Position numbers: made by a program. Shown here one piece after another: positions 3,001-5,832 of a stretch of DNA of 64,000 nucleotides; position 1 is the first letter of the stretch, and the number at the start of each line of letters is the position of its first letter. The stretch lies in NCBI RefSeq assembly GCF_054482595.1, contig NZ_CM137008.1; one strand, 5' to 3'.

Positions 3001-5832
3001 CCCTGGAGGAGGTAAAACTTCCGGGTGACAAAACCTACCGAGCGGCTTTGGTAGAACCACCCGCCCGTGAAGTGCTTGTGCGTACCCCGGCATCTCTACG
3101 GCAACGCCTACCGCGAAAGTTCGATTATGCCGCTCGCGATGAAGCCAACCGCAAGCTGGGCCGGGCAGGGGAGCAGTGGGTGATTGGCTACGAACAGCAA
3201 CGCCTGACCGAGCTCGGCCACCCAGAGCTTTTTCAGCGGCTGGATTGGGTGTCCGACACCCAGGGAGACGGTGCGGGGTTCGACATCCTGTCGTTCGAAG
3301 AGGACGCCCATGAGCGCTTCATCGAGGTGAAAACCACCAATGGCGGGGTAGGCTCGTCTTTCTTGGTCAGCCACAACGAACTCGAATTCTCCAAGGAGGC
3401 GGGCGATCAATTCCATCTGTATCGCGTGTTCCAGTTTCGGGACGGTCCGCGCCTGTTCACGCTACCCGGCGACCTCAGCCAACATGTGCATCTCAAGCCG
3501 ACGGACTACCGGGCGAGTTTCCGGAGTTTGGTGGGGTAAAGGCAGGGTTCTGTTGAGCCGAATGGCTGTGTGCGGCCGATTCTGTTGAAAAAGTAGCGGC
3601 CTCCCCATGCCGTTGGCAAAATTGCTTTGTCAGCGAGCGTGGGGGCGAACAGCATGATGGGACAGTTACCGGGAGGACAGCAGCGCCTGTTCTACTCGTT
3701 CAATCTGGAAGATCACGTCCCGGCCCAACATCTCCTGCGCAGCATCGACCAGTGCTTGGATCTCAGTGATCTACGTGCCTACCTGGCAGATTTCTATAGC
3801 CCCATCGGGCGTCCCTCGATTGACCCGGAGTTGATGGTGCGCATGCTGGTCGTCGGCTACTGCTATGGCATTCGTTCCGAGCGGCGATTGTGCGAAGAGG
3901 TGCACCTGAACCTGGCCTATCGCTGGTTCTGCCGGTTGGGTCTGGAAGACGAAGTCCCCAATCACTCGACCTTCTCGAAGAATCGCCATGGGCGTTTTCG
4001 TGACAGCGATCTATTCCGCTGGTTATTCAATGAGGTGCTGCGGCGCTGCATGGCAGCCGGCCTAGTCAAGGGTGAAGGTTTCGCCGTCGACGCCAGCATC
4101 ATTAAGGCGGATGCCAGCCGGCAACGTGGGGTGGCGGGAGATGAGGTCGATTGGAACGATCCAAAGCTCAGCAGCCGCGCAGTGCGCGAGTACCTCGAAG
4201 CCCTTGATGAAGAGGCGCTGGCTGAGGCTCTTCCCAAGAAAATTTCGCTCACTGATCCTCAGTCCCGTTGGACAGCAGCGCCAGGTGGCCCGGCCTTTTT
4301 TGCCTACTCCACGAATTACCTGATCGACACTGAGCACGGTGTGATCATGGACGTGGAAGCTACCCCGGCGCACCGTACCGCCGAAGTCGATTCGACTAGG
4401 ACGATGGTCGAGCGTGTCGAGGCGCAGTTCGATCTCACACCGGAACGCCTTATCGGCGATACCGCTTATGGCACCGCCCCGATGCTGGCCTGGATGGTCG
4501 AAGAAAAGGACATCGAACCGCATGTGCCGGTGTGGGACAAGACCGAGCGCAAGGACGACAGCCTCTCCAGTAACGACTTTCACTGGAGTCAGGACGCCAA
4601 TGAATATCGCTGCCCAGCCGGCAAACCGCTACGCAGTGAATGGCGCGCCTTCACCCAGCAAAGGTCGCGGGTAACTAAGGCCAAAACCGTCATTTACCGC
4701 TCCAGCCAAACCGACTGCGCCACCTGCCCGTTGAAAGCGAAATGCTGCCCCAACACGCCGAATCGGAAGATCGTCCGCAGCATCCATGAGGCTGCCCGCG
4801 ACGTGGCTCGACGCATCGCCAAGACACCGGAGTACCTCGTCTCTCGCTGCGAACGAAAGAAGGTGGAGATGCTTTTCGCCCACCTCAAACGGATCATGAA
4901 ACTCGACCGTTTACGACTGCGTGGCCTAACGGGTGCCACTGACGAATTAACCTTGGCTGCGATGGTGCAGAACCTGCGCCGCATGGCCAAGCTTTTGCCT
5001 CAAGGGCCACCGCTGACGGGATAGGTATGCCTGCTACGAGCAGAAACCCTCAAATTAACCCTTAAACCTGAGCAAGGACGCTCAGTGAAACGCCGGAAGG
5101 CAACTTGAAGTGGCTTGCAGCCACTTCGACAGCAGGCACACCTGATCGGCAGGCTGCCGCTAAAGCTACTTTTTCAACAGAATCGGCCGATTTGTGCCGG
5201 TCGTCAAGGACCGCTTCGGATCACTCTCAACCGGATCGCGGGCCAGCTGATTTGCTAAAACCCGCGCCAAACTCAACGAAGGATTTCGCATGATCCGTTT
5301 TTTTTGGCGATCACGCTCGGCCTGATGGTTGGCTGCTCGTCGAGTTCAAGTTCGATCTGATCAGTGAGCGGTAGCGCAAGTGGATCGCCTCAGCCAAGCA
5401 GCGTTGTTGCCGGCGGCCGGAAGAAAGCCTTGAACTAGTAGCGGAAAGGATGAAACTTTATTTTTACGATTCTCAGCATTTTCCAAGGTTGAGCGAAAAT
5501 TAGGATGATACTTTAATGATTCCGGCCTCCATCCCCACAAAACGCTTGCAGATGGCAGAATTGAAATAAGTCATTGTTTTAAATGGATTTTTGCAGGAAT
5601 TGCTACGTTGCAGGGTCCTGTAGTTAGGATGACACTTTATTTTCCTCCCACAGGCCTCGTGATACGCCTATTTTTATAGGTTAATGTCATGATAATAATG
5701 GTTTCTTAGACGTCAGGTGGCACTTTTCGGGGAAATGTGCGCGGAACCCCTATTTGTTTATTTTTCTAAATACATTCAAATATGTATCCGCTCATGAGAC
5801 AATAACCCTGGTAAATGCTTCAATAATATTGA

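What the first reader, a model, noticed from the sequence alone, without database searches (positions are those of the whole stretch)
5440..5650. Three iteron-like direct repeats in an unassigned AT-rich spacer upstream of the truncated Tn2
Three copies of an AGGATGAnACTTTA-containing motif of about 20 bp occur at roughly 5447, 5502 and 5626, in a segment that matches neither the Tn2/Tn3 sequence beside it nor the GC-rich block before it. Spaced direct repeats of this kind are typical of replication-initiator iterons or subterminal transposase-binding sites, so this may be a relic of a plasmid origin or transposon end.
Basis: seen in the sequence. Interest (0 to 1): 0.4.

Follow-up and report, generated by a model that had tools for sequence, protein, structure and literature searches.

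The report
Orphan left end of Tn7-like Tn6411
The three repeats are the transposase (TnsB) binding sites of the left end of a known Tn7-like transposon, Tn6411, left as an immobile stump next to blaTEM-1; this is a transposon relic already described in the literature, not a plasmid replication origin.

Summary
AGGATGANACTTTA occurs at 5447, 5502 and 5626 and nowhere else in the window; 0 of 100 shuffles reach three matches. The segment is not unassigned. Window 1090-5652 is 99.9% identical to the cargo-proximal part and left tip of Tn6411, a Tn7-like transposon (tnsABCDE) of Pseudomonas and Acinetobacter. The tip (...CCTCCCACA, last base 5652) abuts Tn2 exactly, and the same base is the breakpoint against four other flanks. 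Intact copies carry the same motif three times at 20-bp spacing beside tnsA, in inverted orientation, and have 5-bp target duplications. This matches prototype Tn7: an 8-bp TGTGGG tip, three spaced sites on the left and packed sites on the right. A 2024 paper already lists these three sites as Tn6411 TnsB-binding sites. The window has no tns genes and no second end, so the end is an orphan. It is present in 649 plasmids and 183 of 5426 complete E. coli genomes. The transposon-end reading is right and the iteron reading is wrong. One side result: Tn6411 keeps the empty site for the Tn2-type insertion upstream of aac(3)-II, so the plasmid 'aacC2-tmrB region' derives from Tn6411, not the reverse as published. 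Ordinary; low interest.

The parts
270..1090 (+). IS26. It cuts into tmrB, so aac(3)-IId is absent from this window. This is the left boundary of the Tn6411-derived fragment here.
   Evidence: blastn of the window against L002/L011/L001: 820-821 bp at 99.9-100% to annotated IS26; ORF 316-1038.
1090..5652 (+). Fragment of the Tn7-like transposon Tn6411: truncated tmrB, orf192, orf228, a DUF3883/NOV_C gene, ISCfr1 and the left-end segment.
   Evidence: 4,565 bp at 99.91% identity to Tn6411 in P. aeruginosa p201330-IMP (L008 15690-20254) and to copies in Acinetobacter and E. coli plasmids.
3573..5189 (+). ISCfr1 (IS1182 family). Perfect 25-bp inverted repeats at 3573-3597 and 5165-5189; transposase ORF ending at 5024.
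   Evidence: IR pair I1, 100% complementary; PGAP name 'IS1182-like element ISCfr1 family transposase'; the IR sequences match Table S2 of PMC11232968.
5190..5652 (+). Native left-end segment of the Tn6411-type element (462 bp). Here it is an orphan end.
   Evidence: 100% identical in 649 plasmids. At 99.6% in a Halioglobus MAG and 96-99% in P. mendocina EF27, where the homology stops at 5185-5190. It lies at the end of intact Tn6411 with TSD CCTAC.
5444..5465 (+). Innermost TnsB-binding repeat, GAAAGGATGAAACTTTATTTTT. The 22-bp extent is set by analogy with Tn7.
   Evidence: Listed, in a shifted register, as 'TnsB binding site 4' of Tn6411 in PMC11232968 Table S2. Conserved in the heat-resistance transposon while the spacers diverge.
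5499..5520 (+). Middle TnsB-binding repeat, ATTAGGATGATACTTTAATGAT.
   Evidence: 'TnsB binding site 5'; conservation.
5623..5644 (+). Terminal TnsB-binding repeat, GTTAGGATGACACTTTATTTTC.
   Evidence: 'TnsB binding site 6'; conservation.
5645..5652 (+). 8-bp terminal sequence CTCCCACA (reverse complement TGTGGGAG). It is the transposon tip and carries the ...ACA-3' that the transposase cleaves and joins.
   Evidence: Five different flanks (Tn2, tniB, an Acinetobacter backbone, the p201330 backbone, the Halioglobus MAG) all diverge immediately after base 5652. The prototype Tn7 tip, read from R721, is TGTGGGCG.
5653..6852 (+). Remnant of Tn2: the last 8 bases of tnpR (GGCCTCGTGA includes the stop codon), blaTEM-1 (5845-6705) and the complete IRR, whose tip is at 6852. 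This is the target into which, or onto which, the Tn6411 left tip was joined.
   Evidence: Tn2-only plasmids match from query base 302, which is window 5653. Intact Tn sequence ...GAAGACGAAAGGGCCTCGTGA. IRR tip ...GAGCGTCAGACCCC at 6852.

Best explanation
Window 5190-5652 is the left (tnsA-distal, cargo-side) end of the Tn7-like transposon Tn6411. The three AGGATGANACTTTA repeats are the cores of its three TnsB transposase-binding sites. The last 8 bp (...CTCCCACA, ending at 5652) are the cleaved and joined tip. In an intact element, TnsB molecules bind these three spaced sites and the three packed sites at the other end, pair the ends, and together with TnsA and TnsC cut the element out and insert it with a 5-bp target duplication. 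In this window only the left end survives. It is joined by a genuine transposition junction to the 3' end of tnpR of Tn2. The tns genes and the right end have been lost, and IS26 now bounds the fragment at 1090. The repeats are therefore a non-mobile relic. The identity of the segment, its architecture and its junctions are shown here. TnsB binding and the reaction chemistry are inferred from homology to prototype Tn7.
For: (1) Identity: window 1090-5653 is 99.91% identical to Tn6411 in p201330-IMP up to its tip. (2) In that plasmid the element runs from this tip to a second tip next to tnsA. The second tip carries the same motif three times at 20-bp spacing in inverted orientation, and the element is flanked by a 5-bp duplication CCTAC. 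(3) A 10,744-bp deletion derivative in E. coli AR434 plasmid CP029123 has both tips and TSD GTTGC. (4) Breakpoint: five unrelated flanks diverge exactly after 5652. (5) The element's proteins hit Pfam TnsA_N/TnsA_C, Mu-transposase_C, TniB/AAA_22, TniQ+TnsD and TnsE_C. Its TnsB matches the solved prototype Tn7 TnsB over its full length at E=2.7e-184. (6) Architecture matches prototype Tn7 as read from R721: the TGTGGGCG tip, three spaced left sites, packed right sites and a 5-bp TSD. This agrees with the description in PMC9308760; 22 of the first 30 bases are shared with Tn7R. (7) A related transposon (TnsB 92% identical) that carries the heat-resistance locus has the same left-end layout. Its sites are 79-88% conserved, while the long spacer is 41% identical with indels. 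(8) Across 63 genomic loci with this tip, ends fall into an L-type (sites at 15, about 139-164 and about 194-219 from the tip) and an R-type (15/35/55). (9) PMC11232968 Table S2 lists these very sequences as Tn6411 TnsB-binding sites and the 26-bp IR TGTGGGAGGAAAATAAAGTGTCATCC.
Against: No binding or transposition experiment exists for Tn6411 in anything I could read; TnsB binding to these exact sites rests on homology. The 22-bp site limits are set by analogy, and the published table uses a different 20-bp register. The reciprocal junction (Tn2 tnpR...GGCCT followed by the right tip), which would prove a simple insertion of the whole element into Tn2, was not found in 72,556 plasmids or in the metagenome contigs. 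How the tip came to be joined to Tn2 therefore remains inferred.
Confidence: 0.95

Rival explanations
1. The repeats are iterons: binding sites for a plasmid replication initiator, a relic of a replication origin.
For: Three same-orientation repeats of about 20 bp in an A+T-richer stretch look superficially like iterons.
Against: No rep gene adjoins the segment in the window or in any of the contexts examined. The same motif occurs in inverted orientation at the other end of a 28-37 kb element that encodes TnsABCDE and is flanked by 5-bp target duplications. The segment also occurs in chromosomes: 26 E. coli chromosomal places and glmS-linked copies in P. aeruginosa (PMC11232968).
Confidence: 0.01
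2. The repeats are a chance recurrence of an A+T-rich word.
For: The local G+C is about 0.40, so A+T-rich words are somewhat commoner here.
Against: The shuffle expectation is 0.07 matches per 64 kb and 0 of 100 shuffles reach 3. The sites are conserved in position and sequence in a related transposon whose spacers have diverged, and in dozens of genomes.
Confidence: 0.005
3. The published account: the 'aacC2-tmrB region', including this segment, arose inside Tn2 by replacement of tnpA-res-tnpR and was later integrated, truncated, into Tn6411. On that view its position at the Tn6411 end is secondary.
For: Stated in PMC7096625 and PMC11232968. The Tn2-linked form is far commoner: 444 plasmids have the Tn2 junction, against about 20 with Tn6411 tnsA and right end at 99% or more.
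Against: The boundary with Tn2 is the exact terminal base of a Tn7-type end. The same 462-bp end occurs without aac(3)-II, ISCfr1 or Tn2 in a Halioglobus MAG and in P. mendocina, and a homologous end occurs on the heat-resistance transposon. Tn6411 contains no Tn2 sequence. It carries the uninterrupted (empty) site GGTATAGTG where, in other plasmids, a complete 4,947-bp Tn1/2/3 sits with a GTATA duplication upstream of aac(3)-II.
Confidence: 0.03
4. The segment is the end of another TGT...ACA transposon of the Mu/Tn552/Tn5053 (TniA) kind rather than a Tn7-type element.
For: Terminal TGT/ACA and multiple subterminal transposase sites are shared by the whole MuA/TniA/TnsB superfamily (established knowledge; the MuA-TnsB similarity is in PMC9308760).
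Against: The intact element encodes TnsA (both Pfam domains), TnsD and TnsE as well as TnsB and TnsC. Its TnsB is a full-length match to prototype Tn7 TnsB. The TSD is 5 bp, and the tip shares TGTGGG with Tn7.
Confidence: 0.01

Closest known systems
Tn6411 (Tn7-like transposon of P. aeruginosa and Acinetobacter plasmids; PMC11232968)
   Same: Window 1090-5652 is 99.9% identical to its cargo-side part and tip. The three repeats and the 26-bp terminal repeat are the ones tabulated for Tn6411.
   Different: The window holds only one end. There are no tns genes and no second end, aac(3)-IId has been removed by IS26, and the tip is joined to Tn2 rather than to a target flanked by a visible duplication. 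The paper calls this end 'IRR'; by Tn7 convention it is the left end because it is distal to tnsA. The paper's 20-bp site register is also shifted off the conserved AGGATGA half.
Prototype Tn7 (read here from plasmid R721, NC_002525)
   Same: An 8-bp tip TGTGGGnG, then arrays of about 22-bp direct repeats. There are three separated sites in the left end and packed sites beside tnsA in the right end, a 5-bp TSD and a tnsABCDE gene set. 22 of the first 30 bases are identical to Tn7R (PMC9308760).
   Different: The site sequence differs: core TAAAGnnTCATCCT against Tn7 ACAAAATAGnnGGGAACT or ACAATAAAGTCTTAAACT. The left end is longer, with sites spread over about 210 bp and gaps of about 100 and 33 bp, against 42 and 31 bp in Tn7. 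The right end has three sites at a 20-bp period rather than four overlapping ones.
Tn7-like transposon carrying the locus of heat resistance (LHR/tLST), e.g. K. pneumoniae plasmid OW848887 (about 28 kb)
   Same: TnsB is 92% identical. The tip (TGTGGGATG...), the site core and the left-end layout are the same, including the 55-bp spacing of the two inner sites. TSD is 5 bp, GGAAT.
   Different: The cargo is different (clpK, sHSP, trx, kefC, htpX, degP). The spacer between the terminal and middle sites is 145 bp rather than 124 bp and only 41% identical.
Plasmid iterons (e.g. the RepA-type iteron arrays of theta plasmids)
   Same: Only the look: several same-orientation repeats of about 20 bp in A+T-richer DNA.
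   Different: There is no cognate rep gene and no origin context. The motif is found in inverted orientation at a second transposon end, and the element is flanked by target duplications.

Membership tests
Tn7-like transposon end | The element terminates in 5'-TGT...ACA-3' with a short conserved tip (Tn7: TGTGGGCG). | tested here: met
   The tip, read inward from 5652, is TGTGGGAG. The R721 Tn7 tips are TGTGGGCG. The breakpoint at 5652 is confirmed by five different flanks.
Tn7-like transposon end | Arrays of about 22-bp TnsB-binding repeats in direct orientation within each end. The ends are asymmetric: separated sites in the left end, packed sites in the right end next to tnsA. | tested here: met
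   Window end: sites at 11, 135 and 190 from the tip. Tn6411 tnsA-side end: 11, 31 and 51. The same dichotomy appears in 63 genomic loci. Compare Tn7 and PMC9308760.
Tn7-like transposon end | Insertion makes a 5-bp target-site duplication. | tested here: met
   Met in intact relatives carrying this very end: CCTAC in p201330-IMP and GTTGC in CP029123. GGAAT in the heat-resistance transposon. It cannot be seen in the window, because only one end remains; the expected duplicate would be GGCCT.
Tn7-like transposon end | The element encodes the heteromeric transposase TnsA+TnsB, the regulator TnsC and target selectors TnsD/TniQ and/or TnsE. | tested here: met
   Pfam hits for all five in Tn6411. 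TnsB against PDB 7pik, Tn7 TnsB, gives E=2.7e-184. None of these genes is present in the window (tblastn), so the window holds a relic, not an element.
Tn7-like transposon end | TnsB protein physically binds the repeats, and the end supports transposition. | not testable with these tools
   Inferred from homology only. No experiment on Tn6411 was found in the papers read.
Tn6411 specifically | Near-identity of sequence to the named element up to and including its tip. | tested here: met
   99.91% over 4,565 bp ending at the tip. The 26-bp IR and the three site sequences match Table S2 of PMC11232968.
Plasmid replication iterons | Repeats lie in or next to an origin, together with the gene of the initiator that binds them. 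| tested here: not met
   There is no rep gene next to the segment in the window or in seven other contexts. In pCTX-M3 the IncL/M repA lies 2 kb away beyond Tn2 and is unrelated to this segment, which is absent from other IncL/M backbones and present in chromosomes.
Plasmid replication iterons | The repeats are specific to a replicon family. | tested here: not met
   The identical segment occurs on IncL/M, IncC, IncF, Acinetobacter and Pseudomonas plasmids, and on chromosomes.

The most novel reading that the evidence does not exclude
The orphan end still has all three TnsB sites and an intact tip. It could therefore still act when a Tn6411-family or heat-resistance (LHR) Tn7-like element enters the cell; the LHR element's TnsB is 92% identical and its sites share the same core. 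TnsB bound at the relic could give Tn7-style target immunity to the 600 or more resistance plasmids and the chromosomal islands that carry it, shaping where these transposons can land. Alternatively the relic could be re-mobilised together with a fortuitous right end.
Probability: 0.3. Interest if true: 0.4.

Novelty: already known. Interest (0 to 1): 0.15.

Why it matters
The value is mainly in annotation. A 462-bp stretch that RefSeq leaves unannotated is present in 649 plasmids and in 183 of 5426 complete E. coli genomes. It can now be labelled as the left end of Tn6411, and the 'iteron/origin' idea can be dropped. A modest by-product concerns the widespread IS26-aac(3)-IId-tmrB-ISCfr1-blaTEM-1 module. 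The junction evidence indicates that this module is a fragment of a Tn7-like transposon from Pseudomonas/Acinetobacter-type hosts that became fused to Tn2. That reverses the direction given in two papers, and it points to Tn7-like elements as the vehicle that first moved aac(3)-II.

Tried and rejected
1. Looked for inverted repeats pairing the segment with sequence left of the transposase gene. Only the ISCfr1 IRs were found (3573-3597 / 5165-5189), which showed that 5190-5652 lies outside that IS.

2. Iteron reading: rejected. No rep gene is present, and the motif sits at both ends of Tn7-like elements.

3. Searched for the reciprocal junction (Tn2 tnpR...GGCCT + right tip) with a chimeric query in the plasmid collection. 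No record covered it. An exact degenerate pattern in the metagenome contigs gave 0 hits. I therefore cannot say whether the whole element inserted into a Tn2, or whether the left tip attacked a Tn2 already inside the element (an intramolecular event giving a roughly 6.9-kb circle that later recombined into another Tn2).

4. Searched the window for a second end or for tns genes. None was found.

5. Literature searches for 'Tn7-like' with 'locus of heat resistance', and for Tn7-derived miniature elements, found nothing directly relevant.

6. PGAP/PLSDB annotation under the match was 'none' in nearly all records. Three rows named a gene under or beside the match ('TniB family', 'GDCCVxC', 'ChrB'). 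The TniB row was inspected and is the neighbouring tniB fragment overlapping the match edge. The other two rows were not inspected.

Full report
**1. The observation**

The three repeats are real. The repeat finder reports one family at 5447-5464, 5502-5519 and 5626-5643, with spacing 55 and 124. AGGATGANACTTTA, allowing one mismatch, occurs only at these three places in the 64-kb window. The shuffle expectation is 0.07, and none of 100 shuffles reaches three. G+C drops from about 0.55 to about 0.40 near 5400-5440.

**2. Surroundings in the window**

- 270-1090 is IS26.
- 1090-5652 is a block containing truncated tmrB, two small ORFs, a DUF3883/NOV_C gene and ISCfr1.
- ISCfr1 is delimited by perfect 25-bp inverted repeats at 3573-3597 and 5165-5189. 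This leaves 462 bp (5190-5652) between the IS and Tn2.
- From 5653 the sequence is Tn2: GGCCTCGTGA is the end of tnpR, blaTEM-1 is 5845-6705, and the IRR tip is at 6852.
- Beyond 6852 lie an IS1 fragment and E. coli ETT2 type III secretion genes, so the window is chromosomal.

**3. What the 462 bp is**

The 462 bp is 100% identical in 649 plasmids of many genera and is present in 183 of 5426 complete E. coli genomes, almost always unannotated.

Read inward from 5652, the end is TGTGGGAGGAAAATAAAGTGTCATCCTAAC. This resembles the Tn7 right tip TGTGGGCGGACAATAAAGTCTTAAACTGAA. I verified the Tn7 tip on plasmid R721: 22 of 30 bases are identical, Tn7 there is 14,067 bp, and its TSD is GTGCG.

A sensitive BLAST found 80-90% matches to 5445-5515 in 68 other plasmids. 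In K. pneumoniae plasmid OW848887 this match is the left end of an intact Tn7-like transposon of about 28 kb. That element carries tnsA, tnsB, tnsC and tnsE plus the heat-resistance locus. Its features are:
- three spaced repeats at the cargo end;
- three repeats at 20-bp spacing beside tnsA, in inverted orientation;
- both tips ...GCATCCCACA;
- a 5-bp duplication GGAAT.

**4. The exact element**

A paper search led to Tn6411 (PMC11232968). In P. aeruginosa plasmid p201330-IMP the window's 1090-5653 matches at 99.91%, up to the tip. The element continues for about 37 kb to tnsA, where TTAGGATGAAACTTTATTTGTA / AGGATGATACTTTATTTGTA / CGGATGAAACTTTATTTGCATCCCACA forms the other end. The element is flanked by CCTAC on both sides.

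Its proteins hit the Pfam families of TnsA, TnsB (Mu transposase C-terminal domain), TnsC (TniB/AAA), TnsD (TniQ+TnsD) and TnsE. Its TnsB matches the solved Tn7 TnsB at E=2.7e-184.

A 10,744-bp deletion derivative in an E. coli IncC plasmid has both tips and TSD GTTGC within tniB. pEC2-NDM-3 keeps only the left junction of that same insertion.

Alignment of four contexts shows that they all diverge immediately after base 5652. Tn2-only plasmids start matching at 5653.

Table S2 of PMC11232968 lists GTGGGAGGAAAATAAAGTGT, GGCCGGAATCATTAAAGTAT and GAATCGTAAAAATAAAGTTT as TnsB-binding sites 6, 5 and 4 of Tn6411. These are the reverse complements of window sequence at the three repeats, in a register shifted toward the tip. 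The finding is therefore already described.

**5. Mechanism**

By homology with Tn7, the end consists of an 8-bp tip plus 22-bp TnsB sites, three separated on the left and packed on the right. TnsB pairs the ends, TnsA and TnsB cut, TnsC couples the reaction to the target, and the result is a 5-bp TSD (PMC9308760). On that model the three repeats position TnsB on the left end.

Constraint on the sites is visible in the comparison with the heat-resistance transposon (TnsB 92% identical). The sites are 79-88% identical, while the long spacer is 41% identical with indels.

A scan of one genome per species found 63 loci with this tip in Pseudomonas, Halomonas, Aeromonas, Pantoea, Photorhabdus and others. 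The ends fall cleanly into an L-type (sites at 15, about 139-164, about 194-219) and an R-type (15/35/55).

The window has no tns genes and no second end. Here the end is inert unless Tns proteins are supplied in trans. The only plausible residual activity is TnsB binding and target immunity, and that is inference.

**6. Origin of the junction with Tn2**

Two papers state that the aacC2-tmrB region arose in Tn2 and was later integrated into Tn6411. The sequence argues the reverse, for four reasons.
- The Tn2 boundary is the exact transposon tip.
- The same 462-bp end exists without aac(3)-II, ISCfr1 or Tn2 in a Halioglobus MAG and in P. mendocina, with homology stopping at the ISCfr1 boundary.
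- In pCTX-M3-type structures, 134 bp of the Tn2 IRR end abut the aac(3)-IId upstream region.
- A predicted partner junction (Tn6411 interior...GGTATA | Tn IRL) exists in five plasmids. In A. pittii pAB17H194-1 a complete 4,947-bp Tn1/2/3 sits there with a GTATA duplication, whereas Tn6411 has the single, empty GTATA site.

So a Tn2-type transposon first inserted upstream of aac(3)-II, and the Tn7-type left tip was then joined to the 3' end of tnpR. I could not decide between two routes: intermolecular insertion into a second Tn2, or an intramolecular attack giving a circle that recombined into Tn2. The reciprocal junction was absent from the plasmid collection and from the metagenome contigs.

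**7. Verdict**

The element and its TnsB sites are already published. Interest is low. The only mildly new points are the annotation of a very common unannotated stump and the corrected direction of descent.

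Noticed in passing
window 270-1090 and 1090-1428: IS26 cuts into tmrB, so this copy of the 'aacC2-tmrB region' has lost aac(3)-IId itself. Only the non-resistance tail, ISCfr1 and the transposon end remain.
   Followed up: partly
L001 (pCTX-M3) 655-788; L008 (Tn6411) about 14560-14583; L076 (A. pittii pAB17H194-1) 14176-19122: Upstream of aac(3)-II, pCTX-M3 has 134 bp of the Tn2 IRR end whose tip abuts Tn6411-type sequence. pAB17H194-1 has a complete 4,947-bp Tn1/2/3 at that spot with TSD GTATA, and Tn6411 has the empty site. This reverses the published direction, in which the aacC2-tmrB region arose in Tn2 and was then integrated into Tn6411.
   Followed up: yes
L005 (K. 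pneumoniae plasmid OW848887) 1820-29784: The heat-resistance locus (clpK/sHSP/trx/kefC/htpX/degP) sits as cargo of an intact Tn7-like transposon of about 28 kb (tnsABC, tnsE), inserted in rclA with a 5-bp TSD GGAAT. The same left end occurs on an Acinetobacter plasmid (L003) with a different flank. My literature search found only two papers that hold both 'Tn7-like' and 'locus of heat resistance', neither with either term in its title or abstract; I did not read them.
   Followed up: partly
L030 6614-6941, L031 3549-3876 (P. alcaligenes NBRC 14159); L069 662-988, L070 4188-4515, L071 8834-9160 (P. oleovorans DSM 1045): Gene-less elements of about 328 bp consisting only of an L-type end (sites at 15/81/146) and an R-type end (15/35) of this Tn7-like family, present in several copies per genome. 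Four of five are flanked by 5-bp duplications (CCCGC, GAAGT, ACCGC, TGCGG). They look like Tn7-derived miniature non-autonomous elements.
   Followed up: partly
L011 (E. coli AR434 IncC plasmid CP029123) 7966-18709: A 10,744-bp deletion derivative of Tn6411 (tnsA-tnsB-truncated tnsC-ISAba14-aac(3)-IId...ISCfr1-left end) with both tips intact and TSD GTTGC in tniB. It is potentially mobilisable in trans.
   Followed up: partly
L024 5377-5845 (Halioglobus MAG); L054 (P. mendocina EF27); LNDO01 Pseudomonas MAG contig ends (L057, L058, L062, L067, L068): The exact window-type left end occurs in environmental gammaproteobacteria without resistance genes. In the Pseudomonas MAG it sits at many contig ends, suggesting a multi-copy element. 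Homology to the window stops at the ISCfr1 boundary, so ISCfr1 marks where the aac(3)-II block was joined to the end segment.
   Followed up: partly
window 6853-11500: Right of the Tn2 IRR tip (6852) there are about 170 bp of IS1-like sequence and then type III secretion genes (SpaN, FliN-like, FliP, export families 1 and 2). This is consistent with the E. coli ETT2 island and means the resistance region is chromosomal here.
   Followed up: partly
PMC11232968 Table S2, compared with window 5444-5652: The published 20-bp 'TnsB-binding sites' for this end are placed in a register that covers the TAAAGT half and the tip-side flank but omits the conserved ATCCT half. The paper also labels the tnsA-distal end 'IRR', opposite to Tn7 convention.
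   Followed up: yes
window 1-269: A G+C-rich stretch left of IS26 that does not match the Tn6411 or pCTX-M3 loci compared. Its identity was not determined.
   Followed up: no
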